A stretch of DNA of 64,000 bases from Candidatus Omnitrophota bacterium (GCA_022709525.1 JAKLIQ010000005.1:71966-135965); one strand, 5' to 3'; positions 11,180 to 49,051 are shown, counted from the first letter of the stretch. Notes: a model not told the origin generated them from the letters alone. A program made the numbers and translations.

Positions 11180-12553
11180 ATGTATACGTATCAGAGAATC
11201 TGGAAAGACTACAAAGCGGACTTCTATAAACGAAACCCCCGGTTTCCAAGGGAAAAATCCTTCTCAGTAGGCCGAGCCCTTTGGGCAATCAGTAGACAGA
11301 AGAGAATCAAGTTCCTTGAAATCGCTCAAAAAACGGGAATGCTTGAGGGAAGCATCCTCAGAATGAGCTCTTCTCACAAGCTGACGACTACCCCCGAAAG
11401 GGTTAAAGCTCTAACCGAAGCATTAGGCGTTGGCCTTGATGAATTCTTTCGTTCGGCTCGTGAAGAGTTTTTCGGGAATTTCTTCATCACCAAAGCGATC
11501 ATGCCGCCCGAAAAGGAAGTAAGGGAGTACGCAAGGCAGGGGCTTTTTCTTCAAAAACAATCGGTCCTGAAATACCCGGCTACCGATACGCCCGATTTTC
11601 AAGTGATCGTTTACTCTCCCCCAATCGAAAGTCTTGATGATTTTTTTTCGGCAACAATCCTGCTTTCACCGGGAAAGAGCATAAAGGACTGCTTGCTTCC
11701 AAGACCTGCGACAATTCATCTCCCCGTAATAAACGGAAATATCGAGATCAGATCGGAACATGAAACAAAAACGCTGCTCGCCGGACAAACAGCGCATTTT
11801 AATGGGGGCGTGAAACACTCGATTGTTAATCTTTCGAAAGATCGTACCGCAGAAATCCTGATTAGCTTTGCGCCAACCCTCATGCTTGCGCAGGAAATAA
11901 AAGATTCACCCTCCACAACATCAACCGAAAATCTCAACATATCACGCCTTGTGAAACAAACTCAAAGCTGGCTCTCACCGGCTCCAGAGATTTCGCTTCC
12001 TATAAGGGAAGTCGCGCTTTTCGCGGGATTTAAAACGAGGGATCTTGCTTTGCTATCACAAACAAAGCTCAGCAACTACCCTCTTGAGAAAATGGAACGG
12101 CTCGCCGAACTTCTTAAAGTTCCCATAGAAAAACTCTTTAAAGGCGATCCTTTCAACCAAAGACTTAATATTGAGATCACATCGGCTTCCGAACACGGCG
12201 CTTACGATTATCGGGCCCGGCATGGAATGACGTTTTATCCGTGGATTAAATTAGGTGCCGAAAAAAAAGAACTCTTTATAGGACAAGCAACATTCGATGC
12301 TCAATTCCTGCAACAAACCGCTATCGGTAACGAGCCGAGAGAAAAGATATGGAAGGGATTAAACCGTGGGTATCTGCTTGCCAAGGGGCTAAATGGGAAG
12401 CTTGGAGTACATGCGGGCGAGCGGCACAACTATACGAATATTGACCGGGAGGATACGGTGTATCTCGATATGAGCCTTGGATTTTCCGTCAGAAATTTCT
12501 CCGCTGCGGAACCGGCGAACTTCTTTCTGGTATCAAACGCTTCCCTGTTTTAA
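11180..12553 (+). CDS. Duplicated HTH(XRE)-cupin regulator.
   Basis: 457 aa. Two HTH-like segments (near residues ~40-90 and ~265-310), each followed by a beta-rich cupin-like region (e.g. IHLPVINGNIEIRSEHETKTLLAGQTAHFNGGVKHSIVN). It is the only long plus-strand gene in this block. Confidence 0.5.
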   Translation: MYTYQRIWKDYKADFYKRNPRFPREKSFSVGRALWAISRQKRIKFLEIAQKTGMLEGSILRMSSSHKLTTTPERVKALTEALGVGLDEFFRSAREEFFGNFFITKAIMPPEKEVREYARQGLFLQKQSVLKYPATDTPDFQVIVYSPPIESLDDFFSATILLSPGKSIKDCLLPRPATIHLPVINGNIEIRSEHETKTLLAGQTAHFNGGVKHSIVNLSKDRTAEILISFAPTLMLAQEIKDSPSTTSTENLNISRLVKQTQSWLSPAPEISLPIREVALFAGFKTRDLALLSQTKLSNYPLEKMERLAELLKVPIEKLFKGDPFNQRLNIEITSASEHGAYDYRARHGMTFYPWIKLGAEKKELFIGQATFDAQFLQQTAIGNEPREKIWKGLNRGYLLAKGLNGKLGVHAGERHNYTNIDREDTVYLDMSLGFSVRNFSAAEPANFFLVSNASLF

Positions 12554-13344
12554 ACCTGAATAAGGTTACCCCAGCGTCTTATCGCCGCAATAAAATCGTC
12601 GAGATTAACGGGCTTCGTTAAGACCTCACAAGCACCCACCCCGAGCAGACGATCTTTCTCATGGAAAAAGCTAGTAAGACCGGTAAATACCTTTATCGAG
12701 GAATAATCGGTGGATGCTTTCATTTTTTTGATAAGCGCATCCCCGTCCATTAGCTGCATTTTAAGATCCGTGCATAACACGTTCGGTTTGAAAAGTTTGG
12801 CGATTTTGAGGGCTTCTTCGGGAGAATGGGCGGGCTCCGCTTCCGCTCCTTCGGCTCTTGCGAGTTCCACGCTGAAATCGGCCACTTCAGGTTCATCATC
12901 TACGAAAAGAATGCGAAGATTGCTTTCGGGAACTTTCCGGTTTTTCAAACCCAAAAGGTCCTGTTTCGAGAGAGCCAATTCCTCCCCGATCATGGCTTCC
13001 AATTCGCGGTTCGTTTGGTATGCACTCGATTTTTCGACAACACGAACATTAAGGCTTTGGACCTGCTCGCGATAATTATTCAGATAACCCGTAACGACAA
13101 TAACGCGAATGTCCGGCATTATTTCCCGCATTTTAGTGATGACTTGGATACCGTTGATGCGGGGCATCTCAAGATCAATGCAGGCAACGCTTGGGCGATG
13201 AGCCTCGACAAGACGAATCGCTTCTTCCTGATTCGTGGTGCCCCAAGCGACAAAGCCGCGAACTTTAAGAGCCGATTGAAGGGCTCTTACGTTTATTATC
13301 TGATCATCCAAAATTAACGCGGAATAAATCTTTTCGTCAGCCAT
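12550..13344 (-). CDS. Response regulator with two tandem receiver (REC) domains and no output domain.
   Basis: 264 aa. ILDDQ...CIDLEMP...IVVTGY and ILFVDDEPEV...CTDLKM...TKP show two sets of receiver Asp/Lys signatures. It is a paralog of 18349..19137, sharing the nucleotide string atcaatgcaggcaacgcttgggcgatg. Confidence 0.8.
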   Translation of the reverse strand: MADEKIYSALILDDQIINVRALQSALKVRGFVAWGTTNQEEAIRLVEAHRPSVACIDLEMPRINGIQVITKMREIMPDIRVIVVTGYLNNYREQVQSLNVRVVEKSSAYQTNRELEAMIGEELALSKQDLLGLKNRKVPESNLRILFVDDEPEVADFSVELARAEGAEAEPAHSPEEALKIAKLFKPNVLCTDLKMQLMDGDALIKKMKASTDYSSIKVFTGLTSFFHEKDRLLGVGACEVLTKPVNLDDFIAAIRRWGNLIQV

Positions 13345-13348
13345 ACCG

Positions 13349-13846
13349 TTAGTTATCCTCCCACTGTTTATTTTTTAATTCTTCCTTAATCTCGCGAATA
13401 TCCTGAAGCAATTCTTCCGTTTCCGTGCGTTTAGCCTTTTCTTCGGCCTTACGGCGTTCGTAATCTTCCAGAAAACGAGCCCGAATTAGATCGTGAACGG
13501 CATTGCGGATTTGAACCATCCGAAAATTGGAAGAATTAAGAGTCGCGTGCGCTTCGCTTTCAAGAGCGGGTTTTGTGTGAATATTATTGGACTCCAAAAG
13601 CAAGAGAAGTTTTGGAGAAGGAACGATCTTGCGTTTTAAATCTAACAAGATTTCCGGGGAGAGATCCGGGTTATCGTCACCGTTTATGATAATAACATCG
13701 ACCTCTTCGCGTTTCCCGATTTCAACGGTTTCAGCAGCAGTCGCGGCCCGATAAACCAGATAGCCTTTCATGAACTTCGTAAAGATATTCTCGATACGAT
13801 TGCTAACCTCTCCCGTTTTATCAAACGTAAGAATTTTAAAAATCAT
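13349..13846 (-). CDS. Receiver-like domain protein with a coiled-coil C-terminal tail.
   Basis: 165 aa. DVIIINGDDNPD in a CheY-like fold context. K/E-rich C-terminus. Its start overlaps the upstream HK stop (ATGA). Confidence 0.5.
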   Translation of the reverse strand: MIFKILTFDKTGEVSNRIENIFTKFMKGYLVYRAATAAETVEIGKREEVDVIIINGDDNPDLSPEILLDLKRKIVPSPKLLLLLESNNIHTKPALESEAHATLNSSNFRMVQIRNAVHDLIRARFLEDYERRKAEEKAKRTETEELLQDIREIKEELKNKQWEDN

Positions 13847-16158
13847 TGCAGCTCTTCCTCGTCCTTCCAGATCGGAAGCTTGATGATAAACGTGGTGCCT
13901 TTGCCAACCTCGCTTTGAACCAAGATTTTCCCTTTATGCTGGCCTTCAATGATCGCTTTTACGTTATAAAGACCTTTTCCTTCCCCCTCAGAACCCTTGG
14001 TCGTAAATCCATAATCGAAAATCTTGGGAAGAACGTCAGGAGGAATTCCCTTCCCATTATCGGAAAATTCAACGCGAACCATGTCTTTATCATCAGGGTC
14101 AAGCATCGCACGAATTTCGATTTTCTTGGGAAAAATGCCGTCCATAGCATGAATGGAATTTTTGAAAAAGTTAATGAAAACGGCCTTTAAAAGTTCCGTG
14201 TGACCGCGAACCGAAGGAAGCTCGCGAGGAGCATCGACTTCAGGGGGATTCTCAAAACCTTGAGTTTTTACGCGATCTCCATACGTCCTGAGCATACCTA
14301 TCGTCACAATCCCTTTTAAAAAGGTTCTGATAGAAATGCGGCCCATTTTGGCGTATTTGCCCTTGCTGATCTCGGCCAAGGTGCGAGCCACATCATCAAT
14401 ATGCTGACTAGCCTGTTGAACGATGATAATGGCACCTAACGCTTCCTCAAGATTCTCAAAAAGCTCTCGCTTTTGACGAACAGGAACAGCATCGCCCGAC
14501 CTATACCATAGCTTCAAAGATTTACCGATATGGTCAAGTGCCGCTGCGACTTGATCGGCATTGTTGGTCAAACCATAGATGGAATTTTTGATTTCATGGT
14601 TAATACCGCCGGAAAGAGCAGAAACGGCGGCCTCCTCCTTCGCCTGAATGACTTCCGCTTGGGTTCTTTTCAATTCATCGTTCATTTGCTCAAGCTTTAT
14701 GTTTTGTTCGATGAGTTCGTCGTGCTTACGGGCATTTTCAAAAGCAATGGCGGATTCCAACGCAATCGTTTGAAAGAGGTTAATATCCTCCTCGTTATAA
14801 GTTTCATCGGATTTTTTTCCATCCAACACTAAAAGGCCCTGAAGCTTACCCTGATAAAAGCTGGGCACGATGAGATGTGCGCGAAGACGCTTCATGTCTT
14901 CCAACAGTTTTGGCAAATTATAAGAATACATGGCATTTTTCGCATACTTCGTTGCAGCTTCTTCTATCGACTGATATTCCAAATAGGTTTTTTTCTTCTC
15001 GGCTTTCAGATACAAAAGAATCGGCGAATCATATTCCAACTTCTTTATCTGATTAGTCATTTCTTCGGGACGGGATGCTTTTAAAATAAAATTGTTTTCG
15101 CCATTTTCGGGCATATAAATCGCGGCACCTTTGATCCTCGCCCTCAGTGTCAAGAAATGCACCACAAGGCGCAGTTGATGATTCAAACTGTTAATATCCG
15201 CTAAACCTTCACTGGCGATTTTTAATATTCTTCGATAATCAAATTTTTTCTGGAATAGATACTTGTCGGTGAGATTAAGAAGAAGCCGTTCCAATGGGCT
15301 AAAAATTAACGCCGTAGTTATAATCCCTAATAATAAAATAACAAAAGGAGAAGGAGCTCCAAAAACATTTCCTATAGCAACCTGAATTAGGGCAAAAGGA
15401 AAAGCAATTACAGAGACGGCGGCAGCTACTATTCCGGCAAACACTAAGGTCTTTTTTACAATAACTTCAACGTCAATAAATTGATAACGAATCACAGCGT
15501 AAAAAGTAACGCAAACAAAAAAGAAAACGCCCCAAATTCCATAAGGAAATGGAAATAGCTCGATATTATAAACTGGTAAAAAGCAACCAATCCCGCCAAG
15601 ATAACCTAAGGAATTGGCTATTATAAAAAATAATAATTTTTTCTTTTCACCGCCAATCCGCATTCTCGCTTCTAAAAACAATACGGAAAGCGTAAGCATA
15701 ACAAGCAGTACAAATAATGCCGTCCACAAATAAAACAAAGGTCCTGCATTGGGGAAAAAGTGGAAAGTGAATTTTGGAACAACATCCGATATAAATAATT
15801 GGGGTTTTATTAAAATAGAAGCTGATATTATTCCCGCTATAAAATAGGAAATTATTATTACACGCCGCAGCCATTGTTTTTTGCTGTTAATTAAAACGTA
15901 GGAAAAATGCAGAAAAGCAACGGGGATAAATACACCTATAAAATGGCATATCCTTGCTAGCTGATATGAAAGCTCGTGATCTGACACATAAGTGCATGCA
16001 AAAACAAAAAAACTCCAGTGCGCTATGCAGAAAGCATACCAAATAAAATGATGTGCCAACTTTCGATTAGGTGAGTTTCTAAAAACAAATATCGCAAATA
16101 CAAATGCTGTTACAGCAGTAACTAATGCGGATGTGAAATAGTGTTGAGCTGGCGTCAA
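13843..16158 (-). CDS. Multi-transmembrane sensor histidine kinase (N-terminal ~300-aa polytopic membrane domain, GAF-like region, HisKA, HATPase_c).
   Basis: 771 aa. Many hydrophobic helices at the N-terminus. H-box GGINHEIKNSIYGL. C-terminal G-boxes DNGKGIP and GSEGEGKGLYNVK...GKGTTF. The N-terminal membrane part is markedly AT-rich. Confidence 0.85.
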   Translation of the reverse strand: MTPAQHYFTSALVTAVTAFVFAIFVFRNSPNRKLAHHFIWYAFCIAHWSFFVFACTYVSDHELSYQLARICHFIGVFIPVAFLHFSYVLINSKKQWLRRVIIISYFIAGIISASILIKPQLFISDVVPKFTFHFFPNAGPLFYLWTALFVLLVMLTLSVLFLEARMRIGGEKKKLLFFIIANSLGYLGGIGCFLPVYNIELFPFPYGIWGVFFFVCVTFYAVIRYQFIDVEVIVKKTLVFAGIVAAAVSVIAFPFALIQVAIGNVFGAPSPFVILLLGIITTALIFSPLERLLLNLTDKYLFQKKFDYRRILKIASEGLADINSLNHQLRLVVHFLTLRARIKGAAIYMPENGENNFILKASRPEEMTNQIKKLEYDSPILLYLKAEKKKTYLEYQSIEEAATKYAKNAMYSYNLPKLLEDMKRLRAHLIVPSFYQGKLQGLLVLDGKKSDETYNEEDINLFQTIALESAIAFENARKHDELIEQNIKLEQMNDELKRTQAEVIQAKEEAAVSALSGGINHEIKNSIYGLTNNADQVAAALDHIGKSLKLWYRSGDAVPVRQKRELFENLEEALGAIIIVQQASQHIDDVARTLAEISKGKYAKMGRISIRTFLKGIVTIGMLRTYGDRVKTQGFENPPEVDAPRELPSVRGHTELLKAVFINFFKNSIHAMDGIFPKKIEIRAMLDPDDKDMVRVEFSDNGKGIPPDVLPKIFDYGFTTKGSEGEGKGLYNVKAIIEGQHKGKILVQSEVGKGTTFIIKLPIWKDEEELQ

Positions 16159-16162
16159 TTTC

Positions 16163-17152
16163 TTAATTCCTCGCGAAGCAATATTGCATAATTTTTAAAG
16201 GCTCATACTTTAAGTTAAGACTCGAAGATATAAACCCTGCACTCTCAAATATCTTCAAAAACTCTTGTTCGGTTCTATAAACCAACTCCCAGTCCCCTCC
16301 CCATTCCATGAAATGTCTTGCGGGGTTACTCCATTTATCCCGATAATTTGAAATGATCAATAAACCGTTAGGAACTAAAAGTTTTTTAAGATTGGCCACC
16401 AACCGAGTCGATATTTTTTCATCCAAGTAGTCAAAAAGTCCTGTGGAAAATATTAAATGATATTTTTCCGAAAAATACCCTTCAATGTTTTTAGTTAAAG
16501 CTAATTTAATAACATTTTTTTGAAGAAAACATATTTGTTTATTAAAAGTCTTTGTTTTCAGTTTGGACTTTGAATGTTCGATAGCATTTATATCGTGATC
16601 CAAGCAATCCATTAAAACATTCCCCCCTAATTCTTTTGCTTGGTCATAGAACTCGATAATATCAGTACATGGACCTGATGCCAGATCCAAAATTCGAATC
16701 TTGCGTTTTAAAGCATTCTCTTTAGAAAAATCCATTAAAAATTGCTTAAAGTCTTCTTTTCGATTTCTCGTTGCTACGGAAGCTGATGCTTTTAAAAAGT
16801 AGTTGTCCATACATCGTTCAATTCCAGTAGTGTTGGGGGAATTTTTATAAATCTCATCAATAATCATAAAATCGCCATGATACCCATACGGTTTATCAAT
16901 TACATGACGATTGTATTTTCCTAAGCGTATAAGGTCTCGGCAATGCTGGATGAACAAGTGCTTCATTTCATATACTTTACTTTCGTTTGATTCATTATTT
17001 TTCTCAAAATTCGAAAGCCAGTCAAAAACTTCATCAAGAATACTATCTATGTCTTTTTGAGCGTTTTGCCAACCATTAGGCTGAATTTCTAATTCTTTTT
17101 TAACTTTTTCTATTTTCCCTTTATACATCTGAATCATCTCGGAGATATTCAT
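16163..17152 (-). CDS. Class I SAM-dependent methyltransferase with a ~140-aa helical N-terminal domain.
   Basis: 329 aa. Motif I ILDLASGPCTD. Post-I acidic DCLDHD. Motif LIISNY. Not CheR-like (no AxSxGCSTGEE). Very AT-rich gene (~33% GC). Confidence 0.7.
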   Translation of the reverse strand: MNISEMIQMYKGKIEKVKKELEIQPNGWQNAQKDIDSILDEVFDWLSNFEKNNESNESKVYEMKHLFIQHCRDLIRLGKYNRHVIDKPYGYHGDFMIIDEIYKNSPNTTGIERCMDNYFLKASASVATRNRKEDFKQFLMDFSKENALKRKIRILDLASGPCTDIIEFYDQAKELGGNVLMDCLDHDINAIEHSKSKLKTKTFNKQICFLQKNVIKLALTKNIEGYFSEKYHLIFSTGLFDYLDEKISTRLVANLKKLLVPNGLLIISNYRDKWSNPARHFMEWGGDWELVYRTEQEFLKIFESAGFISSSLNLKYEPLKIMQYCFARN

Positions 17153-17156
17153 TAAA

Positions 17157-17552
17157 TTACTTCTTTCTTTTTTCTATGAGAGCATTTTTCACGGCCAAAA
17201 GAAGCTCTTGTATATCGAAAGGCTTCATAATATAGGCGTACGGCATAAGAGCTTTTGCTTCTTTTTCTTTTAGTTCATCTGCAAATCCAGTAATAAAAAT
17301 CGTTGGGATGTTTTCCATTTTTTTTCTTAAAAAGATTTCTCTTAATTTTAAGACGGTTTCAACCCCATCAAGTCCCGGCATTCTAATATCGGATATTATT
17401 AAATCGAAATTTTCTTCTTCCGCCATTTCACAGGCATCTTGTCCTTTCTTAGCAATAAAAACATCGTACCCGGTTTTTTCCAAAACCCTCGAAAAAGTTT
17501 TTGTTAATAATTCTTCATCATCAATCACAAGTATTTTTTTCTTGTCGTCCAT
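17157..17552 (-). CDS. Single-domain CheY-like response regulator.
   Basis: 131 aa. KKILVIDDEE...LIISDIRMPGLDG...IFITGF...IMKPF. AT-rich. Confidence 0.85.
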   Translation of the reverse strand: MDDKKKILVIDDEELLTKTFSRVLEKTGYDVFIAKKGQDACEMAEEENFDLIISDIRMPGLDGVETVLKLREIFLRKKMENIPTIFITGFADELKEKEAKALMPYAYIMKPFDIQELLLAVKNALIEKRKK

Positions 17553-17576
17553 TCTGGCATCTCTCCATTTATAAAA

Positions 17577-18272
17577 TTAACCGCCTTTTTTCGAATCTCC
17601 CGTTAGGGCTTCTTGAATTTTTTCCATTACCACCGTATCAAGATATTCTAAGTTCAACGGTTTTGTAATGTAATCACTTGCACCCAACTCCTTGGCTTTA
17701 TCAATAACAGGTTGATCCACAACCGCCGTAACCATAATGACCTTTATCTCAGGATTGTACTTTTTTATTTCCTGTAAAACCTGCACGCCATCACGCATCC
17801 CACCGCTTGACAGACGAACATCCAGAAGAACAATATTGGGATTGTATTCGCGTAGGATCTCAAGGGCTTTTTCGCCGGAATCGGCTGTGTAGGACTCATA
17901 ACCCTTGTCGCTAAAATAATCACCGAGAAATTCGATAATCTCGGCTTCATCATCAACACAAAGCAGCTTGATTTGTTTTACTTCTTTTTTACTTTTTTCT
18001 TCCATCGGTCGGTTCCCCATCTGTTGGATTTGAGATTCTGGTAAATTTTTTTGCAAAAACTTTACGACATCGCCGACCTTATGCATTCGTTCCACCGCTT
18101 CATCTGAAATCTCGCGGCCAAATGCTTCCTCAAGGGCGATTACGAGTTCTACTGTATCAAGACTCTCTGCCCCTAAGTCTTTTACAAATCGAGATTCTAA
18201 TTTCACTTCCTCGATTGGTAGTTTCAACAAATCGGCTACAATTCGTCGTACCTTTTCTGCAATGTCATCCAT
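17577..18272 (-). CDS. Fusion protein: N-terminal acyl carrier protein domain plus C-terminal receiver (REC) domain.
   Basis: 231 aa. Residues 1-77 ([30 protein letters not shown]) align near-identically with the E. coli AcpP core ([30 protein letters not shown]), including the phosphopantetheine Ser. Residues ~105-225 are a complete REC domain ([10 protein letters not shown]...VLLDVRL...MVTA...ITKP). Confidence 0.8.
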   Translation of the reverse strand: [231 protein letters not shown]

Positions 18273-18348
18273 TCCGGCCGAATGGTCCTTTCTTGCTCTT
18301 ATTCTTACTGCATAATACCCTTCTGTAGTGCTCTCTACGTGTTAAATT

Positions 18349-19137
18349 TTAGTTCTTCAAAAGCAAAGCCCAGCGCCGCATCGAGTTGATAATGGTCGTT
18401 AAATCAAAAGGTTTGCTCAAAACCTCATGAGCGCCAACCGAAAGAAAACGATGATGCGCATCTGGATCGCCAGTCATTCCAACAAAGATTTTAATCGAAG
18501 GATAACTGCCTAAGCGTATTTTTTTAATTAGTTCATCACCTTGCATTTGCGACATCGTTAAATCGGTACAAACAATGTCCGGCCTAAATGATGATATTTG
18601 AATTAGTGCCTCTCCGGGAGAATAGGCAACCTGAGCTTGAAATCCTTCTTCCTCGGCTATATGCTGCATAAAATCACAAATATCATCTTCCTCGCCCACG
18701 AACAATATGCGTGCTTTAAGATCAGGTTTTTCTCTGGTTTTTAAGGCATCAAATTCTTCTCGCGACAATTCAAGTTCCGCGCAAATGACCTTATCGAGTT
18801 CGTGCATTCCTCTTGAGTCTTTTTCAACAACACGAACCTTGAGAGCATCAACCTCCGCGTGATAAGTGTCTAAATACCCTGTAACTACAACCACACGAAT
18901 ATCCGGCATGATCTCTCGCATCTTTTTGATGACTTCGATACCATTCATCTGCGGCATATCCAGATCAATGCAGGCAACGCTTGGGCGATGGCTTTTCACA
19001 AATTCGATTGATGCAAGAGGGTCTTGAGTAGCAAAAGTCATAAACCCACGCCGTTTTAAGGCTTTCTGGAGAACGGCAAGAATTACGGCATCATCGTCCA
19101 CAAGTAGTGCGGAGTAAGCTATTTCTTTTTTATCCAT
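18349..19137 (-). CDS. Response regulator with two tandem receiver domains (paralog of 12550..13344).
   Basis: 262 aa. LLVDDDAVIL...CIDLDMP...VVVTGY and ILFVGEEDD...CTDLTM...SKP. Confidence 0.8.
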   Translation of the reverse strand: MDKKEIAYSALLVDDDAVILAVLQKALKRRGFMTFATQDPLASIEFVKSHRPSVACIDLDMPQMNGIEVIKKMREIMPDIRVVVVTGYLDTYHAEVDALKVRVVEKDSRGMHELDKVICAELELSREEFDALKTREKPDLKARILFVGEEDDICDFMQHIAEEEGFQAQVAYSPGEALIQISSFRPDIVCTDLTMSQMQGDELIKKIRLGSYPSIKIFVGMTGDPDAHHRFLSVGAHEVLSKPFDLTTIINSMRRWALLLKN

Positions 19138-19170
19138 TTACCGTATCCGGCTTTAATTGATGTTGATTTC

Positions 19171-19491
19171 TTATTTCAACCGCCAAAATGGCCCGATTTT
19201 CCATAAAACAAGAACGCTTGCAATGCATGCAATTATACCTATGACCAAAAGTATTGTAGTCACTTTTAATGCTATTTTGGGTAAACCTTTTTCAGTCTTT
19301 GGCTCCTTAGGTAAAAGAAATTCTGCGCCAATAAATAATGCTAAGAATATTAACGGAGCTGCTGCGTAACTCGGTGGGTAAAAGGTCAATGTAAGAATGA
19401 GAAATAGTGCCGCTAAGACAATCAACGAACGCACAATGATTTTCTCTATAGACATACTTCTCCCCCAAAATTGACCTTTTAAGCCTTTCAT
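19171..19491 (-). CDS. Small integral membrane protein (3 predicted TM helices).
   Basis: 106 aa with three hydrophobic stretches. It is the first gene of the minus-strand signalling operon, downstream of an AT-rich 380-bp spacer. Confidence 0.45.
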   Translation of the reverse strand: MKGLKGQFWGRSMSIEKIIVRSLIVLAALFLILTLTFYPPSYAAAPLIFLALFIGAEFLLPKEPKTEKGLPKIALKVTTILLVIGIIACIASVLVLWKIGPFWRLK

Positions 19492-20992: not shown

Positions 20993-21471
20993 GTCCTTGC
21001 GGTTATCTCGGCGATACGCGCAAGACCTGCCGTTGTTCTTTAGGACAGATCCACAAGTACCGGTCTAAAATTTCGGGGCCGATCCTCGACAGGATCGATA
21101 TTCATATTGAAGTCCCGGCTCTTTCGTTCCAAACCCTTACAGGGCAAGAACCCGTGGAAGATTCGGCAACAATCCGTCAGAGAATTTGCGACTGCCGGAA
21201 AATACAGAGATCGCGCTATTCTAAAAGACCCTATAAAACAAATTCACAAATGTCCCCCAAGGATATCAAGGAGTTCGCAACGCCGGACCTCCAGGGCCGA
21301 AAACTCATTGAAATGGCGATGAAAGAACTTCATTTGTCAGCCCGGGCTTATTACAAGATCCTCAAGATCTCCCGAACGATCAGCGATCTCGCCGGTTGCG
21401 AGCAAATTCAAAGCGAACATATCGCAGAGGCGATTCAATATCGGAGCTTAGACAGGCAGTGGTATGGATGA
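20980..21471 (+). pseudogene. comM: 3' remnant (C-terminal ~164 aa) of a comM/yifB-family Mg-chelatase-like AAA+ ATPase gene. The N-terminal ATPase part is missing.
   Basis: The in-frame translation from the stop at 20977 reads ACPCGYLGDTRKTCRCSLGQIHKYRSKISGPILDRIDIHIEVP...EDSATIRQRI...LSARAYYKILKISRTISDLAGCEQIQSEHIAEAIQYRSLDR. This aligns with E. coli YifB ...CTPEQTLRYLNRLSGPFLDRFDLSLEIP...ESSATVKQRV...LSIRAWQRLLKVARTIADI...HLQEAVSYRAIDR. There is no upstream ATPase domain. The frame begins 12 bp from the divergent XRE gene start. Confidence 0.75.
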
Positions 21472-21575: not shown

Positions 21576-22259
21576 TTACTGAATCGCTACCTTCTGCGCA
21601 TCCTTCTGGCCCGGGGCTTTGGGCAGCGTGATGATCAAAACCCCATTTTTGTATTCCGCGACAATCTTTGATTCATCGACCAGCCCGGGCAAACTCAAGC
21701 TTCGCGCAAAAGAGCCATAGCTGCGTTCTTGCGCGTAATATCCGGTTTTTGGGTCTTGAGTCTCGTTCGCCGTCTGACGCACACCTTCAATCGTCAGGAT
21801 GTTCTCTTTCACGGTCAAATTAATTTTATCTTTCTCCAAACCCGGAAGATCGCTCTTGACGATATAAGCGTCTTTTGTCTCTTCAAGATCTACTGCCGGG
21901 GTAAAATCAAATCCAGCGCCTTGAGGCATATTCTGAAAAAGCGGCGAACCGAACATAAAGGCATGCTGCATCAGATTGCTCATGCGCCGACTCATCTGGT
22001 CGAAAGATTCCCATGGATCATCGTTGACCAAAAACTGAGAAAAAGCTCGTGGGGCTTGAGAGGCAGCGTTATGCGTTCTCGCATGCATGACAGATGCCGC
22101 GTTTTGACGCGCAAGAATTGATTCGTCCTGCCGTTTTTCAAGCGCTGTCTGCCGCCGGCCTTGTTGAACCAGTGTGACCGTCTGCAACAACACAACGATC
22201 GCGAGAATAGCAATGATAATATGTGTCCCTTTGATCTTTTTTTCCAATAGTTCGCTCAT
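21576..22259 (-). CDS. Membrane-anchored Hsp20/alpha-crystallin family small heat-shock protein.
   Basis: 227 aa. N-terminal TM helix (HIIIAILAIVVLLQTVTLV). C-terminal alpha-crystallin domain (AVDLEETKDAYIVKSDLPGLEKDKINLTV...GVLIITLPK). Confidence 0.8.
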   Translation of the reverse strand: MSELLEKKIKGTHIIIAILAIVVLLQTVTLVQQGRRQTALEKRQDESILARQNAASVMHARTHNAASQAPRAFSQFLVNDDPWESFDQMSRRMSNLMQHAFMFGSPLFQNMPQGAGFDFTPAVDLEETKDAYIVKSDLPGLEKDKINLTVKENILTIEGVRQTANETQDPKTGYYAQERSYGSFARSLSLPGLVDESKIVAEYKNGVLIITLPKAPGQKDAQKVAIQ

Positions 22260-22349
22260 AGGGGTTTCTCCTCTTTGGTAAAATGTCCTTATTTTCTATT
22301 GCAAGAACGCCCAACCCCGATCGGGCCCGGAGCAGGGCGTTTGCAATAT

Positions 22350-22805
22350 TTATTTTATATCGACTTTGATCTGTTTGGGTTTGGCTTTCTCGGATTTTGG
22401 AAGGGTCAATTCCAAGACGCCGTCTTTATAGCCGGCTACAACCTTGTCCGCGTCAACCTCAGCTGGCAATTCCACCGATCGCCGGAAACTTCCGTAGCGT
22501 CTTTCGGAATAGAAGTAACCTTTCCCTTTTTTACTCTCCTCTTCTTTGCGTTCTCCCTTGACCGTGAGCGTGTTTCCAACAACCGAGATGTCCAGGTCTT
22601 TGCGTTCCATTCCTGGGATGTCAAGATGGAGCAGGAACTGATTCTCGTCTTCCTTGACTTCAAGGCTTGGAAAAAATTCCCCAAAACTCGTCTCCGGGTT
22701 TCGGCGCAAAGACGAAGAAAATAAACGGTTCATGTCATCCTGCAGATCTGTGACAAGATCAAAGGGATCGATCCATCGATTCGTATGTTTCACAAGTGGG
22801 TTCAT
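22350..22805 (-). CDS. Hsp20 family small heat-shock protein.
   Basis: 151 aa. LEVKEDENQFLLHLDIPGMERKDLDISVVGNTLTVKGER...YGSFRRSVELP...GVLELTLPK. Confidence 0.85.
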   Translation of the reverse strand: MNPLVKHTNRWIDPFDLVTDLQDDMNRLFSSSLRRNPETSFGEFFPSLEVKEDENQFLLHLDIPGMERKDLDISVVGNTLTVKGERKEEESKKGKGYFYSERRYGSFRRSVELPAEVDADKVVAGYKDGVLELTLPKSEKAKPKQIKVDIK

Positions 22806-23326: not shown

Positions 23327-23779
23327 ATGCATACCGACACCGAGAACATGAAAGCAAAGGTTACCCAAAGAAAGGTTCGCTCCGTGGAAAAAGCTCCGGT
23401 GCAAAAGAAAAGGATCTTGATCATCGAAGACGAGTTCAGCGCGAGCAAGTTTTTAACCTTGCGTCTGAAAAGCCTTGGGTTTGAGGTCTCAGCCGCGTTC
23501 GACGGTATGACCGGCCTGAAGGAAGCGACCGAAACGATCCCCGACCTTGTCATCCTGGACCTGATGATCCCGAAACTCCCGGGAGAAGAGGTGTGCAAAA
23601 CGCTTCGGGAAAGTTTCGATGAAAAGATCGCGAAGATCCCCATCATCATGCTCACGGGCAAGGATTCCGTGGTCGACAAGGTCCTCGGGAAAGTCATCGG
23701 CGCGGACGCTTATTTGACCAAGCCCTATGATTTCAGCGACCTTCTTGTAGCGATCAAGAAAATACTTCCGGACTCTTAA
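23327..23779 (+). CDS. Single-domain response regulator receiver protein.
   Basis: 150 aa. KRILIIEDEF...LVILDLMIP...IIMLTGK...LTKPY. Confidence 0.85.
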   Translation: MHTDTENMKAKVTQRKVRSVEKAPVQKKRILIIEDEFSASKFLTLRLKSLGFEVSAAFDGMTGLKEATETIPDLVILDLMIPKLPGEEVCKTLRESFDEKIAKIPIIMLTGKDSVVDKVLGKVIGADAYLTKPYDFSDLLVAIKKILPDS

Positions 23780-23836
23780 ACGTTAAAAACGGAAACGTCC
23801 CGGGGCGGGGCCTCGGGACAAAAAGAGGGCAGGAAG

Positions 23837-44518: not shown

Positions 44519-45868
44519 TTATTTTTTCGTGGTTTCTTCGATTGATTCATAAGTAATTTCCAGCAGTTTATTCAGCTCCCGTTCACTCATCGCTAAAGGC
44601 GGCATCAGCACGATCACGGGGCCCAAGGGCCGCAGAATCGCTCCTTTTTTTCTCGCCCGCTCGATCACGCGAACACCGATTTTTTCTTCGGGCTTAAAAG
44701 ATCCTTTCGTCTTTTTGTCGCGCACAAGCTCGATCCCGACCATGGTCCCGCACTGCCGGATATCGCCGACCGATTTCAGCCGATGAAAATCCTTCAGGCG
44801 GTCCCGCATCAGCCGGATCTTCGGCTGAAGTTTTTCCAGCGTTCTGTCTTTACGGAAAAGATCGATTGTCGCGTTCGCGGCAGCACAGGCTAACGGGTTC
44901 GCGGTATAAGTGTGGCCGTGAAAAAATGTTTTAAATTCTTCGTGACGGCCCAGGAACGCTTCGTAGACCTCTTCGGTCGTCAGCGTCGCGGCGAGCGGCA
45001 AATAACCGCCCGTCATGCCTTTGGCGACCGCCATGATATCCGGCGTTACGTTCTCATGGTCTGCCGCAAACATCTTTCCCGTGCGGCCGAACCCTGTCGC
45101 GACCTCATCAAAGATCAGAAGGATATTATACTTTCGGGTCAATTCCCTGGCACGGGAAATGTATTCGGCGGGCTGGTCGATCATGCCGGCGGCGCCTTGC
45201 ATGAGGGGCTCCATCACGAGCGCGGCGATCTCTTCGTGATGTTCGCGCAAAACTTTTTCCATGGCTTCGAGCGATTCTTTTTTGACTTTTCCCGGGTCGT
45301 CGCCCGTAGGCCATCGGTAGCGGTAAGGCGACGGCATCTCAAAAGTGTCAAAAAGAAGCGGTTTATAGATCTGATGAAAAAGGTCGACCCCGCCGACGCT
45401 CACGGAGCCCAGCGTGTCGCCGTGATAAGCGTTCGTGAGTTTGGCGAAACGCTTTTTTTTCGTATTGCCCCGCTGCTGCCAGTACTGGAACGCCATTTTA
45501 AGCGCGACCTCAACGGCTTCGGAGCCGGAATCGGAATAAAAAACGCGAGCGAGTCCCTTAGGCGAGATCTGAATGAGTTTTTCCGCAAGCTCAATGGCGG
45601 CGGGATGGGTCAAGCCGAGGAAAGTCGTGTGCGCGATCTTTCCGAGCTGCTTTTTGACGGCCCGGTCGATCGCTTTCACGCGGTGCCCGAACACATTGCA
45701 CCAAAGCGACGACACGCCGTCCAGATATTTCCGGCCGGTCGTATCATAAAGGTAAGAGCCCTTCCCTTTTTCGATGACCAGGACTTCTTCGGATTGCCAG
45801 TCACGCATCTGCGTGAAAGGATGCCAGATATATTTCTTATCTTTGGAGATGAGTTTTTTTGCGTCCAT
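44519..45868 (-). CDS. bioA: Adenosylmethionine-8-amino-7-oxononanoate aminotransferase.
   Basis: 449 aa. Class III aminotransferase signatures, LIFDEVATGFGRTG. Confidence 0.9.
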   Translation of the reverse strand: MDAKKLISKDKKYIWHPFTQMRDWQSEEVLVIEKGKGSYLYDTTGRKYLDGVSSLWCNVFGHRVKAIDRAVKKQLGKIAHTTFLGLTHPAAIELAEKLIQISPKGLARVFYSDSGSEAVEVALKMAFQYWQQRGNTKKKRFAKLTNAYHGDTLGSVSVGGVDLFHQIYKPLLFDTFEMPSPYRYRWPTGDDPGKVKKESLEAMEKVLREHHEEIAALVMEPLMQGAAGMIDQPAEYISRARELTRKYNILLIFDEVATGFGRTGKMFAADHENVTPDIMAVAKGMTGGYLPLAATLTTEEVYEAFLGRHEEFKTFFHGHTYTANPLACAAANATIDLFRKDRTLEKLQPKIRLMRDRLKDFHRLKSVGDIRQCGTMVGIELVRDKKTKGSFKPEEKIGVRVIERARKKGAILRPLGPVIVLMPPLAMSERELNKLLEITYESIEETTKK

Positions 45869-45871
45869 TCC

Positions 45872-49048: not shown

Positions 49049-49051
49049 GGA

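What the first reader, a model, noticed from the sequence alone, without database searches (positions are those of the whole stretch)
12550..19491. Eight-gene signalling operon bracketed by paralogous tandem-REC proteins, with an AT-rich methyltransferase/CheY insert
Minus-strand genes are packed with 0-76 bp gaps or overlaps, in this transcription order: small membrane protein, tandem-REC, ACP-REC, CheY, SAM-methyltransferase, multi-TM GAF histidine kinase, REC-like coiled-coil protein, second tandem-REC (nucleotide-level paralog of the first). The methyltransferase, the CheY gene and the kinase's membrane domain are ~33-38% GC against a ~55% background. That suggests a horizontally acquired module grafted into the operon. 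A methyltransferase plus many receivers but no MCP or CheA/CheR/CheB signatures hints at a non-chemotaxis methylation-linked phosphorelay.
Basis: partly seen in the sequence, partly recalled or inferred. Interest (0 to 1): 0.55.

Follow-up and report, generated by a model that had tools for sequence, protein, structure and literature searches.

The report
Swappable enzyme-and-sensor cassette in signalling operon
In an uncultivated Omnitrophota bacterium, a signalling operon carries an AT-rich block (a small receiver gene, a small-molecule methyltransferase and the membrane half of a sensor kinase) that close relatives have swapped for other versions, a pattern otherwise seen in bacterial cell-to-cell signalling systems that exist as incompatible "dialects".

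Summary
The eight minus-strand genes are real and tightly packed, and the GC dip is real and extends to synonymous sites. The window is a Candidatus Omnitrophota metagenome contig.

The core order REC, then methyltransferase (MT), then 7TM-GAF histidine kinase is conserved across about 60 Omnitrophota species genomes: the kinase directly follows the MT in 53/58 loci.

The AT-rich segment (CheY, MT, kinase residues 1-291; window ~17,600-15,285) is a recombination cassette. The nearest relatives are 81-95% identical on both sides, with no similarity inside. One carries a non-orthologous MT plus a reductase and an unrelated 7TM domain in the same slot.

Across 33 loci, MT identity co-varies with the kinase's 7TM half (Mantel r 0.65, p 0.0002) but not with its catalytic half (r 0.02).

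The MT has a small-molecule methyltransferase fold. Some homologues carry an automated PhcB label (the Ralstonia quorum-sensing synthase).

Best reading: a synthase/receptor pair for a self-made, probably lipid-like, methylated signal, with receiver-only proteins feeding back on synthesis. The idea that the MT methylates the receivers is not. All functional steps are inferred.

The parts
19171..19455 (-). Small membrane protein, 94 aa, three hydrophobic segments. The ORF can be extended to 19491 (106 aa). Part of the left backbone.
   Evidence: It is 93.6% identical in L089, with 21 synonymous vs 6 non-synonymous codon changes and nucleotide differences of 5/3/23 by codon position. No homologue was detected in syntenic L007/L015 or in the first 714 bp of L090. 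Gene callers chose the 94-aa version in L002 and L089.
18349..19137 (-). Tandem-receiver protein REC2a, 262 aa. The N-terminal REC is catalytically intact; the C-terminal REC has G/E in place of the acidic pair. Left backbone.
   Evidence: Pfam Response_reg, 2 stretches, E 6.6e-36. Residue mapping against E. coli CheY. 95.4% identical in L089 and 84% in L090.
17577..18272 (-). ACP-REC fusion, 231 aa: an AcpP-type acyl carrier domain (Ser in 'ESLD' conserved) followed by an intact receiver. It is a recent fusion of two neighbouring genes. Left backbone.
   Evidence: TIGR00517 83.5 bits vs cut-off 70.45. PP-binding + Response_reg. Fused only in L089 (94%) and L090 (83%); the ACP is a separate 79-aa gene in L007 and is found just upstream of a REC in L013, L016 and L036.
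17157..17552 (-). CheY-like single receiver, 131 aa, with D12 D13 D57 T87 K109 all present. It ends 4 bp before the MT start. Part of the cassette.
   Evidence: A single REC lies within 200 bp upstream of the MT in 41/53 Omnitrophota loci. Only 38% identical to the REC at this position in L089. GC3 0.311.
16163..17152 (-). Class I SAM-dependent methyltransferase, 329 aa: N-terminal helical domain (1-145) plus Rossmann MT domain. Small-molecule type. Part of the cassette.
   Evidence: Methyltransf_31/20/23. AF2 model pLDDT 92.5. Foldseek neighbours 3ocj, SgvM, SibL, DnrK, FPP-MT, Coq5 and a PKS C-MT domain. JGI names four homologues as the 3-hydroxypalmitic acid methyl ester biosynthesis protein. 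GC3 0.324.
15285..16158 (-). 7TM input domain of the histidine kinase (residues 1-291). Part of the cassette.
   Evidence: HisKA_7TM 44.8 bits vs cut-off 28.6. About 7-8 hydrophobic segments. 24% identity to P0242 here, against 86-89% in the rest of the protein. The DNA similarity to L092 stops at 15,284. GC3 0.293.
13843..15284 (-). Cytoplasmic GAF - DHp (H-box GGINHEIKNS) - ATPase part of the same kinase (residues 292-771). Right backbone.
   Evidence: GAF and HATPase_c. H-box read directly from the sequence. 80.8% DNA identity to L092 over window 15284-12331. GC3 0.44-0.47.
13349..13846 (-). Pseudo-receiver with a C-terminal coiled coil, 165 aa. Asn replaces the phospho-acceptor Asp. Right backbone.
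   Evidence: hhalign against a REC profile: probability 94.6%, E 6.5e-8, residues 3-58. Residue mapping. 80% identical in L092 and 39% in L007. In 33/46 loci a REC lies within 1 kb after the kinase.
12550..13344 (-). Tandem-receiver protein REC2b, 264 aa, paralogue of REC2a. Right backbone.
   Evidence: 49% aa identity to REC2a, E 4e-87. 87% identical in L092. A tandem REC lies within 2.5 kb downstream of the kinase in 13/46 loci.
15285..17600 (.). The exchangeable AT-rich cassette as a whole (CheY + MT + kinase 7TM domain): 34.1% GC against 41.3% (left backbone) and 44.1% (right backbone).
   Evidence: Left breakpoint from L089 (junction read). Right breakpoint from L092. GC values. Breakpoints at the same places in L011/L041, L012/L041 and L010/L041.
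11180..12553 (+). Convergent 457-aa neighbour whose 3' end overlaps REC2b by 4 bp. Weak cupin hit; two XRE-like helix-turn-helix stretches seen by eye. It travels with the backbone and is a possible DNA-binding partner (speculative).
   Evidence: Cupin_2 E 1e-4, below the Pfam cut-off. 60% identical at the syntenic position in L007 and 92% over the C-terminal 73 aa in L092.
13172..13200 (-). 29-nt exact repeat shared with 18962-18990, encoding HRPSVACIDL (the phospho-acceptor region) in both tandem-REC genes. Probably a short gene-conversion tract.
   Evidence: (0/20000 shuffles reach a run of 29). No exact copy in any relative's locus.

Best explanation
The operon is a conserved signalling backbone into which a replaceable 2.3-kb cassette is set.

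Backbone: small membrane protein, tandem-REC, ACP-REC, then the GAF-DHp-ATPase part of the kinase, pseudo-receiver, tandem-REC.
Cassette: a CheY-like receiver, a small-molecule SAM methyltransferase, and the 7TM input domain of the kinase.

Proposed mechanism:
1. The methyltransferase makes a methylated, probably lipid-like, small molecule. A fatty-acid-derived methyl ester, as made by PhcB, is the leading guess.
2. The 7TM domain that is inherited together with that enzyme detects the molecule in the membrane.
3. The kinase autophosphorylates on the H-box histidine and passes phosphate to the receiver-only proteins.
4. None of the receivers has a DNA-binding domain. The main output is therefore proposed to be post-translational. 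The receiver encoded 4 bp upstream of the MT would control the MT (autoinduction or feedback). ACP-REC and the tandem receivers would act as further targets or phosphate sinks, for example control of acyl supply.
5. Different cassette versions in near relatives would then be different signal/receptor 'dialects', comparable to quorum-sensing pherotypes.

SHOWN: the genes, domains and catalytic residues; conservation of REC-MT-7TM kinase across Omnitrophota; the breakpoints; MT/7TM co-variation; the small-molecule MT fold.
INFERRED: co-transcription, the product, the ligand, the direction of feedback, and any cell-to-cell function.
For: 1. Linkage. The kinase follows the MT within 200 bp in 53/58 Omnitrophota loci, and a single REC precedes it in 41/53. 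The triad also occurs alone in an unrelated chromosomal context (L008).

2. Cassette breakpoints in the window's own lineage.
- L089: 94-95% aa identity for the three upstream genes, then 38% for the next REC, followed by a ketoacyl-synthase start. DNA identity drops from ~90% to random at ~17,600.
- L092: 80.8% DNA identity over window 15284-12331 and nothing upstream. It carries a different MT (26% identity over 149 aa), an SDR/NAD_binding_4 reductase and a 7TM domain only 24% identical.

3. The same pattern elsewhere. L011 and L041 are 85-90% identical in DNA over ~20 kb, except from just upstream of the REC gene to near the end of the 7TM domain. Inside the kinase protein, identity is about 25% up to alignment column 240 and 90-100% from column 321.

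4. Co-variation (Mantel, 33 loci). MT~7TM r 0.65, p 0.0002. MT~catalytic domain r 0.02, p 0.42. 7TM~catalytic domain of the same protein r 0.12, p 0.07.

5. Composition. GC3 of MT, upstream REC and 7TM is 9-11 points below flanking genes in 40 loci (p 5e-7 to 2e-5). The catalytic half is at +3, not significant.

6. Enzyme type. The AF2 model (pLDDT 92.5) matches only small-molecule methyltransferases. The best plasmid hit by E-value is an MT domain inside a type I PKS.

7. Lipid context. An AcpP-type ACP with a conserved Ser lies within 8 kb on the same strand in 5/60 loci. L036 adds REC-KAS, REC-thioesterase, REC-HMG-CoA reductase and an ICMT/PEMT-type MT between the MT and the 7TM kinase.

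8. Regulatory input to the MT. Family members occur as PilZ-MT or cNMP-binding-MT fusions. They are followed by a 7TM domain (L095), a MASE8-PAS hybrid kinase (L093) or a MASE8 cyclase (L097).

9. Precedents.
- In Ralstonia, the MT PhcB makes the signal and the kinase PhcS senses it. The receiver-only PhcQ is needed for signal production but not for transduction, and PhcB/PhcS sequences split strains by signal type (PMC8578825; PMC6989110).
- In the ComQXPA census, the membrane N-terminal domain of ComP, predicted to interact with ComX, is much more variable than its conserved cytoplasmic domain. In B. subtilis the locus polymorphism corresponds to pherotypes (PMC4008528).
Against: - No chemistry or expression data exist; the product and the ligand are unknown.
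- A direct alignment with Ralstonia PhcB could not be made. The PhcB link rests on automated JGI names and on matching size and architecture.
- Sensor input domains generally evolve faster than catalytic domains, so part of the discordance is expected. The sharp breakpoints and the non-orthologous enzyme content are not expected on that basis.
- The ACP is present in only 5/60 loci, so acyl-ACP use may be clade-specific or a relic.
- No transporter, peptide or DNA-binding regulator is present, so a population-level (extracellular) role is not demonstrated. The loop could be purely autocrine or homeostatic.
- Omnitrophota are thought to be mostly tiny and host-associated (my own knowledge), which makes classical density sensing less obvious.
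Confidence: 0.5

Rival explanations
1. Membrane-lipid homeostasis loop. The MT, together with the ACP/KAS/reductase/ICMT-type enzymes seen in relatives, modifies a membrane lipid. The 7TM domain senses the state of the bilayer, and the receivers tune the enzymes by negative feedback. No intercellular signal is involved.
For: Lipid-type accessory genes sit in or near the cassette slot: KAS, thioesterase, HMG-CoA reductase and ICMT/PEMT in L036; a KAS start in L089; a reductase in L092. The ACP is AcpP-type. The sensor is in the membrane, with no large periplasmic domain indicated by the hydrophobic-segment layout. The operon has no DNA-binding output and no exporter.
Against: A housekeeping homeostat should be conserved, not replaced by unrelated versions between genomes that are 81-95% identical on either side. 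Several MAGs carry two modules (L036+L045, L012+L062, L030+L048). One module sits next to an integrase/RepA/toxin-antitoxin island. Strong enzyme/sensor co-variation that is decoupled from the kinase core points to specificity pairing rather than a general bilayer property.
Confidence: 0.2
2. Self-sensing of a lipid-like antimicrobial or effector. The cassette enzymes make a weapon or host-directed compound. The matched 7TM kinase detects it to drive production or self-protection, and cassette diversity comes from an arms race rather than from communication.
For: The same structural and co-variation evidence as the main explanation. The variable biosynthetic content of the cassette slot resembles small natural-product clusters. 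Omnitrophota are proposed to be host-dependent or predatory (my own knowledge), and giant putative surface proteins lie next to the operon.
Against: No immunity, efflux or ABC transporter gene lies in or beside the operon. The compact cassette has a single enzyme, which is little for a toxin pathway.
Confidence: 0.12
3. One reading: the MT methylates a protein of the pathway (a receiver or the kinase), giving a methylation-modulated phosphotransfer system analogous to chemotaxis adaptation.
For: The MT is tightly packed with many receivers. Sub-threshold CheR-domain matches occur in two distant family members (P0448 and P0470, E 4e-4 and 6.5e-3, below the cut-off).
Against: There is no CheR, CheB, MCP, CheA or CheW signature. 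All of the best 50 structural neighbours listed are small-molecule methyltransferases. MT identity tracks the transmembrane input domain and not the catalytic domain. In L092 the slot holds a different MT family plus a reductase, which fits a metabolite pathway better than a protein modifier.
Confidence: 0.08
4. No functional unit. The genes are merely adjacent, and the GC dip reflects membrane-protein or low-expression codon bias.
For: The sigma-70-type promoter and terminator scans give no clear boundaries. Part of the dip lies in a membrane domain.
Against: The dip is as strong in the soluble MT and CheY and at synonymous sites. The gene order is conserved in about 60 species. Spacings of -4 to 4 bp suggest translational coupling. 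Sharp recombination breakpoints coincide with the GC steps.
Confidence: 0.03

Closest known systems
[quoted passage not shown]
   Same: A SAM-dependent methyltransferase gene lies directly upstream of a sensor histidine kinase gene, in one operon with receiver proteins that lack DNA-binding domains. A receiver-only protein (PhcQ) controls signal production rather than transduction. PhcB and PhcS sequences group strains by signal type (PMC8578825; PMC6989110). JGI's pipeline gives four Omnitrophota homologues, and a ~470-aa relative, the PhcB product name.
   Different: The receiver precedes the MT instead of following the kinase. The kinase has a HisKA_7TM + GAF input. There is no PhcR-type receiver-kinase protein. 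The operon has extra tandem receivers, a pseudo-receiver and an ACP. The MT is 329 aa with no N-terminal extension, whereas phcB is up to ~470 codons with residue 22 outside the MT domain. The phylum is different. Homology to PhcB was not tested directly.
ComQXPA pherotype polymorphism in Bacillus subtilis and relatives
   Same: The variable part includes the sensor kinase's N-terminal membrane domain, while the kinase's cytoplasmic domain stays conserved (PMC4008528). comQ is also highly polymorphic (PMC4408185). That the polymorphic block covers the signal-processing gene and the sensor domain together is my own knowledge (Tran et al. 2000, Tortosa et al. 2001, not read here).
   Different: The signal there is a ribosomal peptide modified by an isoprenyl transferase, and the response regulator ComA binds DNA. 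Here there is no room for a peptide gene in the cassette, the enzyme is a methyltransferase, and the receivers have no output domain.
Staphylococcal agr specificity groups (agrB-agrD-agrC hypervariable region); my own knowledge, not checked here
   Same: A hypervariable segment covers the signal-processing gene, the signal gene and the sensor half of the kinase AgrC, with conserved flanks, giving mutually interfering groups.
   Different: It is a peptide thiolactone signal with a DNA-binding AgrA. Here the system is enzyme-only and probably lipid-like.
CqsA/CqsS (Vibrio) and LqsA/LqsS (Legionella) alpha-hydroxyketone systems; my own knowledge, not checked here
   Same: An autoinducer synthase gene sits next to a multi-pass membrane sensor kinase that binds a hydrophobic, fatty-acid-derived ligand within the membrane domain.
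   Different: The synthase there is a PLP-dependent acyl-CoA transferase, not a methyltransferase, and the kinases are hybrid or feed an HPt relay.
Chemotaxis-type methylation (CheR/CheB with MCP and CheA)
   Same: A methyltransferase is encoded together with CheY-like receivers.
   Different: There is no CheR fold or signature, and no MCP, CheA, CheW or CheB.

Membership tests
Phc-type quorum sensing (PhcB/PhcS/PhcR/PhcQ) | The signal synthase is a homologue of the PhcB methyltransferase | tested here: inconclusive
   JGI names four family members (P0010, P0022, P0105, P0106) and the ~470-aa relative P0411 as the '3-hydroxypalmitic acid methyl ester biosynthesis protein'. The ~470-aa class matches the MT profile at about 1e-47 over its full length, and phcB is at most ~470 codons. 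No Ralstonia sequence could be obtained, so no direct alignment was made.
Phc-type quorum sensing (PhcB/PhcS/PhcR/PhcQ) | The methyltransferase gene is adjacent to, and co-oriented with, a membrane sensor histidine kinase gene | tested here: met
   4-bp gap in the window. 53/58 Omnitrophota loci.
Phc-type quorum sensing (PhcB/PhcS/PhcR/PhcQ) | Receiver proteins without a DNA-binding domain lie in the same operon | tested here: met
   All receivers in the operon lack output domains, apart from the ACP fusion.
Phc-type quorum sensing (PhcB/PhcS/PhcR/PhcQ) | A PhcR-type protein (receiver plus kinase domain) | tested here: not met
   No such architecture among the eight proteins.
Phc-type quorum sensing (PhcB/PhcS/PhcR/PhcQ) | The product is a 3-hydroxy fatty acid methyl ester that activates the kinase | not testable with these tools
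   Needs expression of the MT and mass spectrometry.
Phc-type quorum sensing (PhcB/PhcS/PhcR/PhcQ) | A LysR-type master regulator (PhcA) as the downstream output | not tested
   The window was not systematically scanned for LysR regulators. None lies beside the operon.
Polymorphic (pherotype-type) two-component quorum-sensing loci (ComQXPA, Agr) | The variable block spans the signal-making gene and the kinase's membrane input domain, and the kinase's cytoplasmic part is conserved | tested here: met
   Window vs L092 and L089. L011/L012/L010 vs L041. Mantel tests.
Polymorphic (pherotype-type) two-component quorum-sensing loci (ComQXPA, Agr) | A ribosomally made peptide pheromone gene lies in the block | tested here: not met
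   The 4-bp gaps between CheY, MT and the kinase leave no room for one. The ORF list at min_aa 60 shows no further same-strand gene within 17552-15285 other than a shadow ORF inside the kinase gene. Shorter ORFs were not listed.
Polymorphic (pherotype-type) two-component quorum-sensing loci (ComQXPA, Agr) | A DNA-binding response regulator (ComA/AgrA type) | tested here: not met
   No DNA-binding domain in any operon protein.
Polymorphic (pherotype-type) two-component quorum-sensing loci (ComQXPA, Agr) | Signal/receptor specificity differs between variants | not testable with these tools
   Needs cross-activation assays.
Chemotaxis-type methylation system | A CheR-family methyltransferase | tested here: not met
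   No CheR hit in Pfam or NCBIfam for the MT. The fold neighbours are small-molecule MTs.
Chemotaxis-type methylation system | MCP, CheA, CheW and CheB present | tested here: not met
   None among the operon proteins or the immediate neighbours scanned.
His-Asp-His-Asp phosphorelay | An HPt domain or a hybrid kinase with its own receiver | tested here: not met
   No HPt hit, and the kinase has no REC domain. The system looks like one kinase with several single-step receiver targets.
AcpP-type acyl carrier protein (the N-terminal domain of ACP-REC) | Passes the curated equivalog model and keeps the phosphopantetheine-attachment serine | tested here: met
   TIGR00517 83.5 vs 70.45 bits; NF002148 86.4 vs 71 bits. 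The Ser aligns with E. coli AcpP Ser36 in all intact copies (E. coli sequence from memory).
HisKA_7TM sensor histidine kinases (PF16927) | 7TM N-terminal region above the Pfam cut-off, together with an H-box and HATPase_c | tested here: met
   PF16927 44.8 vs 28.6 bits; HATPase_c E 2.4e-22. H-box GGINHEIKNS. No ligand is known for this domain family in the two papers found.

The most novel reading that the evidence does not exclude
Omnitrophota carry a phylum-wide, previously undescribed family of small-molecule signalling systems. A PhcB-like methyltransferase, sometimes joined by ACP/KAS/reductase/thioesterase enzymes that are themselves fused to receiver domains, makes a lipid-like signal. 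The matching 7TM input domain of a histidine kinase detects it. Enzyme and sensor domain are exchanged together as low-GC cassettes, so that close relatives speak different 'dialects'. The output is post-translational feedback on the biosynthetic enzymes, not transcription. This would be the first communication or kin-recognition system proposed for this ultra-small, largely host-dependent phylum.
Probability: 0.35. Interest if true: 0.8.

Novelty: new variant of a known kind. Interest (0 to 1): 0.62.

Why it matters
If the reading is right, several things follow.
- It gives a concrete, testable candidate for chemical signalling, or self/non-self discrimination, in Omnitrophota, a widespread uncultivated phylum whose cell biology is almost unknown.
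- It extends the Phc-type logic (a methyltransferase synthase paired with a membrane sensor kinase) far beyond Betaproteobacteria.
- It shows that pherotype-style cassette exchange, known from the peptide systems ComQXPA and Agr, can also operate on an enzyme/7TM-sensor pair.
- The HisKA_7TM input domain has no known ligand. The co-inherited enzyme points to where to look.
- Receiver, PilZ or cNMP-binding domains recur on or next to this MT family, and receiver domains are fused to KAS, thioesterase, HMG-CoA reductase and ACP. This suggests a broader, little-studied mode of direct post-translational control of lipid-type biosynthesis by two-component and second-messenger signalling.

Tried and rejected
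1. Direct comparison with Ralstonia PhcB was not possible.
- No PhcB sequence was available.
- The genome scan kept only the best 80 of 189 relatives, none of them Ralstonia.
- tblastn against plasmids found only distant class I MTs.
- The AFDB fold library was unavailable.
- Two cluster look-ups of the ~470-aa class returned no Burkholderiales names.
- Literature searches for PF12147/Methyltransf_20 and for PhcB with PilZ gave nothing useful.

2. Rfam scan of the whole window: no hits.

3. Promoter and terminator scans. Promoter-like sites were not above the shuffled expectation (16 vs 21). Terminator-like sites were 19 vs 10.5, with none convincing between the genes. The only suggestive sites are a promoter-like match at 19519-19490 and weak terminator-like hairpins at 19763-19747 and 19650-19638, all upstream of the first gene.

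4. My initial conclusion that the low GC argued against any graft, because it is family-wide, was revised once the breakpoints were found.

5. Idea that the ACP implies a KAS in this operon: rejected. The only KAS in the window (47069-48274) lies in a biotin-synthesis cluster.

6. Sequence-only PDB searches with the MT or its profile gave nothing informative. The best profile hit was a spurious capsid-protein match.

7. Two quorum-sensing survey papers contain no mention of PhcB, PhcS or, in the one checked for it, Omnitrophota.

8. L090 and L092 come from the same sample but share no 21-mers and do not overlap, so they could not be joined.

Full report
WHAT IS THERE

The window is a metagenome contig. 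It matches JGI sample 3300009838, contig Ga0116153_10000303, about 69 kb. NCBI names the same proteins 'Candidatus Omnitrophota bacterium'.

Eight minus-strand ORFs run from 19,491 (more likely 19,455) to 12,550, with spacings of 33, 76, 24, 4, 4, -4 and 4 bp. Pfam and NCBIfam give, in transcription order:
- a small protein with three hydrophobic segments;
- a tandem-receiver protein (REC2a);
- an ACP-receiver fusion, whose ACP half passes the curated AcpP model TIGR00517 (83.5 vs 70.45 bits);
- a CheY-like receiver;
- a class I SAM methyltransferase (MT);
- a HisKA_7TM-GAF-HATPase_c histidine kinase;
- a 165-aa protein with no Pfam hit;
- a second tandem-receiver protein (REC2b).

Receiver domains were aligned to E. 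coli CheY (sequence from memory). CheY, the receiver of ACP-REC and the N-terminal receivers of both tandem proteins keep D12, D13, D57, T87 and K109. The C-terminal receiver of REC2a has lost the acidic pair.

The 165-aa protein is a pseudo-receiver. Its first 58 residues match a receiver profile (hhalign probability 94.6%, E 6.5e-8), it has Asn at the phospho-acceptor position, and a coiled coil follows.

The kinase has an H-box (GGINHEIKNS) and about 7-8 hydrophobic segments in residues 1-290. No HPt domain, hybrid kinase, MCP, CheA, CheR or CheB is present.

The small membrane ORF is a real gene. Against a 94%-identical relative it shows 21 synonymous and 6 non-synonymous codon changes, with differences concentrated at third positions (5/3/23). 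The conserved form is 94 aa.

REC2a and REC2b are 49% identical in protein (E 4e-87) but only 58% in DNA and 42% at third positions. They are old paralogues.

COMPOSITION

MT is 32.9% GC, CheY 33.3% and the kinase's membrane part 36.6%. The window averages 50.3%, the 8-24 kb neighbourhood about 45%, and 24-57 kb about 54%.

The depression is at synonymous sites as well. GC3 is 0.31, 0.32 and 0.29 for CheY, MT and the 7TM part. It is 0.44-0.49 for the rest of the kinase, the pseudo-receiver and REC2b, 0.39 for REC2a and ACP-REC, and 0.63 +/- 0.06 for 19 genes at 30-63 kb. Membrane-protein or amino-acid bias therefore cannot explain it.

CONSERVATION

The MT has hundreds of homologues, almost all from Omnitrophota. 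A scan of one genome per species with an MT-family alignment found 189 relatives. Of the 80 kept, 60 are the Omnitrophota-type loci (36-69% identity). The other 20 are distant relatives (27-38%) in other phyla.

I annotated all loci with HMMs built from this window's own domains. In the Omnitrophota loci:
- a 7TM kinase starts within 200 bp downstream of the MT in 53/58 loci;
- a single receiver gene ends within 200 bp upstream in 41/53;
- a receiver follows the kinase within 1 kb in 33/46;
- a tandem receiver follows within 2.5 kb in 13/46;
- an ACP lies within 8 kb on the same strand in 5/60.

The distant non-Omnitrophota relatives have no directly adjacent kinase.

In L008 the REC-MT-kinase triad stands alone among unrelated housekeeping genes. 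L007 (MT 52% identical) is syntenic with almost the whole operon, including the convergent 457-aa neighbour and a giant gene beyond it. There the ACP is a separate 79-aa gene just upstream of a receiver gene. The ACP-REC fusion is therefore recent. It is found only in relatives at 94% and 83% identity.

THE AT-RICH BLOCK IS AN EXCHANGEABLE CASSETTE

Three lines of evidence support this.

(i) The window's own lineage. L089 is 93.6%, 95.4% and 93.8% identical in the small membrane protein, REC2a and ACP-REC. Its next gene is a receiver only 38% identical to CheY, and the contig then begins a beta-ketoacyl synthase (PF00109, 26 vs 20.8 bits). DNA identity falls from about 90% to random at about 17,600, within the last codons of ACP-REC.

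On the other side, window 15,284-12,331 aligns as one block to L092 at 80.8% DNA identity. At protein level the pseudo-receiver is 80% identical, REC2b 87% and the convergent gene 92%. Upstream of 15,284, which is kinase residue ~291, nothing aligns. The kinase proteins are 86-89% identical in the GAF, DHp and ATPase parts but 24% in residues 1-240. L092 carries, in the same slot, an SDR/NAD_binding_4-type reductase and a different methyltransferase (26% identity over 149 aa; Methyltransf_2-like).

The opposite discordance also exists. P0253 is 68% identical in the 7TM part but only 28-35% in the cytoplasmic part.

(ii) Other lineages. L011 and L041 are 85-90% identical in DNA over about 20 kb. 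The exception is a block that runs from just upstream of the receiver gene, through the MT, to about 190 bp before the end of the 7TM domain. Inside the kinase, identity is about 25% up to alignment column 240 and 90-100% from column 321. GC steps from 0.34-0.40 to 0.55-0.57 at about the same point. L012/L041 and L010/L041 resume similarity at the same place.

(iii) Family-wide statistics. In 33 loci, MT identity co-varies with the 7TM domain (Mantel r 0.65, p 0.0002) but not with the kinase catalytic domain (r 0.02, p 0.42). The two halves of the same kinase are nearly uncorrelated (r 0.12, p 0.07).

In 40 loci, GC3 of MT, the upstream receiver and the 7TM domain is 10.9, 9.5 and 8.9 points below flanking genes (p 5e-7 to 2e-5). 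The catalytic part is at +2.9 (not significant). MT GC3 still tracks the host (r 0.55).

The cassette in this window is therefore about 17,600-15,285. It is 34.1% GC, against 41.3% and 44.1% for the left and right backbone.

Independent assemblies from other samples reproduce the arrangement. L003 spans the left junction and the whole kinase gene, and L002 spans the left junction. This argues against chimeric assembly.

WHAT THE ENZYME IS

The AF2 model is confident (pLDDT 92.5). It shows an N-terminal helical domain followed by a Rossmann methyltransferase domain.

All of the best 50 PDB neighbours are small-molecule or natural-product methyltransferases: the uncharacterised Bordetella protein 3ocj, SgvM, SibL, DnrK, FPP methyltransferases, Coq5 and a PKS C-methyltransferase domain. 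None is a protein methyltransferase. The best plasmid hit by E-value is an MT domain inside a type I PKS.

JGI's pipeline names four family members 'extracellular factor (EF) 3-hydroxypalmitic acid methyl ester biosynthesis protein', which is the PhcB product name.

An exhaustive profile search shows a large superfamily: 5,586 clusters at E <= 1e-3 and 1,028 at E <= 1e-30. A recurrent class of ~465-485 aa carries an N-terminal PilZ domain (8 of 15 scanned) or a cNMP-binding domain (one case) in front of the same MT. One of them also bears the PhcB name.

Published mutation coordinates imply that phcB is at most ~470 codons long, with residue 22 outside the MT domain (PMC6989110). That fits this class. 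I could not obtain a Ralstonia sequence, so homology to PhcB remains untested.

CONTEXT THAT POINTS TO A LIPID-LIKE PRODUCT AND TO DIRECT CONTROL OF ENZYMES

- The ACP keeps its phosphopantetheine-attachment serine in every intact copy.
- In L036 the slot between the MT and the 7TM kinase is filled with REC-HMG-CoA reductase, REC-thioesterase, ACP, REC-ketoacyl synthase and an ICMT/PEMT-type membrane methyltransferase fused to a class I MT.
- L089 starts a ketoacyl synthase after its receiver. L092 has a reductase, and the gene before it ends in '...VPRFIPHW', which from memory looks ICMT-like; this was not tested.
- In the tight family, PilZ-MT fusions replace the separate upstream receiver and are still followed by a 7TM domain (L095).
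- More distant members are followed by a MASE8-PAS hybrid kinase or by a MASE8 nucleotide cyclase.

The recurring design is a methyltransferase carrying, or preceded by, a signal-receiving domain, and followed by a multi-pass membrane sensor that produces the matching kind of signal.

MOST LIKELY MECHANISM

The MT makes a methylated, probably fatty-acid-derived, small molecule. The co-inherited 7TM domain detects it. The kinase then phosphorylates the receiver-only proteins. The receiver just upstream of the MT feeds back on the MT. The other receivers, including ACP-REC, are further targets or sinks. Cassette variants would be different signal/receptor pairs.

The closest precedents are these.
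- The Ralstonia Phc system. PhcB is the synthase and PhcS the sensor. The bare receiver PhcQ is needed for signal production but not for transduction. PhcB/PhcS sequences split strains by signal type.
- ComQXPA pherotype polymorphism. The membrane input domain of ComP is highly variable while its cytoplasmic domain is conserved.

Shown: architecture, conservation, breakpoints, co-variation and enzyme class. Inferred: product, ligand, feedback, co-transcription and any population-level role. I put this at about 0.5.

The main rival is a membrane-lipid homeostasis loop (0.2). It explains the lipid genes but not the allelic replacement between near relatives, the duplicate modules in single MAGs, or the mobile-element neighbourhood in L095. 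A self-sensed antimicrobial or effector is a variant of the main idea (0.12).

NOVELTY

I found no paper linking Omnitrophota to such a system, none describing a ligand for HisKA_7TM, and none mentioning PF12147.

The logic is known from Phc, ComQXPA and Agr. The components and their combination are not: a methyltransferase plus 7TM-GAF kinase cassette, receiver-only outputs, and receiver-fused lipid enzymes. I therefore rate it a new variant of a known kind.

Noticed in passing
window 1-8860, minus strand: A giant ORF with no stop codon over 8.86 kb in one frame. It is the start of a gene that JGI calls at 8,308 aa and that runs off the window. The syntenic relative L007 has a gene of more than 5,000 aa at the same position (weak HEAT_2 hit). 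Giant putative surface proteins are a reported trait of Omnitrophota (my own knowledge).
   Followed up: partly
window 13172-13200 and 18962-18990, minus strand: A 29-nt exact repeat shared by the two tandem-REC paralogues, which are otherwise 58% identical in DNA (0/20000 shuffles reach this run). It encodes the phospho-acceptor region. No exact copy occurs in any relative's locus, so it is probably a recent short gene-conversion tract. The two copies are direct repeats that bracket most of the operon.
   Followed up: partly
window 11180-12553, plus strand: A convergent 457-aa gene overlaps the 3' end of REC2b by 4 bp. It has a weak cupin hit and two XRE-like helix-turn-helix stretches seen by eye. 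It is conserved next to the module in L007 (60%) and L092 (92% over the C-terminal 73 aa), so it travels with the backbone. It might be the missing DNA-binding partner.
   Followed up: partly
window 44519-50074, minus strand: A biotin-synthesis-like cluster with a dedicated ketoacyl synthase and short-chain reductase: BioB-like radical SAM (49052-50074), SDR (48320-49048), KAS (47069-48274), BioF-like (45872-47053) and BioA-like (44519-45868). No ACP other than the one fused to REC was detected anywhere in the window.
   Followed up: partly
window 23327-27816, plus strand: A second signalling cluster: a single receiver (23327-23779), a REC-GGDEF-EAL protein (23837-25528) and a multi-PAS histidine kinase (25525-27816). 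GC3 is 0.69-0.72 for the latter two genes, much higher than in the operon studied.
   Followed up: no
window 21576-22805, minus strand: Two adjacent HSP20-family small heat-shock genes (21576-22259 and 22350-22805), and a short Mg_chelatase_C fragment ORF nearby on the plus strand (about 21250-21471 by the JGI gene call).
   Followed up: no
L036:9600-20979: An expanded module in which biosynthetic enzymes are fused to receiver domains: REC-HMG-CoA reductase (530 aa), REC-thioesterase (308 aa) and REC-ketoacyl synthase (563 aa). It also has an ACP and an ICMT/PEMT + class I MT fusion (544 aa), all lying between the PhcB-like MT and a 7TM kinase.
   Followed up: partly
L095:2406-8043: A PilZ-MT fusion of the tight family, followed by a 7TM domain, lies directly beside an integrase, RepA_C, an HTH_17 excisionase-like gene and a BrnT/CopG toxin-antitoxin pair. 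This is a possible vehicle for horizontal spread of the module.
   Followed up: no
L006/L011, L041, L051, L053 (upstream of the REC-MT-kinase triad): Arrays of one to three additional HisKA_7TM kinases without a GAF domain sit just upstream of the triad in several genomes. They might be extra receptors. Several MAGs carry two complete modules (L036+L045, L012+L062, L030+L048).
   Followed up: no
L014:1678-2320: A group II intron maturase-domain ORF (GIIM, E 4e-17) lies immediately upstream of an ACP gene whose N-terminal part is replaced. This suggests that an intron insertion disrupted the ACP in that genome.
   Followed up: no
L097:6001-8875 and L096:6001-7443: Distant members of the MT family are followed by a MASE8-adenylate/guanylate cyclase gene (2-bp gap), or are fused to a cNMP-binding domain. 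The same enzyme family appears to be wired to cyclic-nucleotide signalling in other phyla.
   Followed up: no
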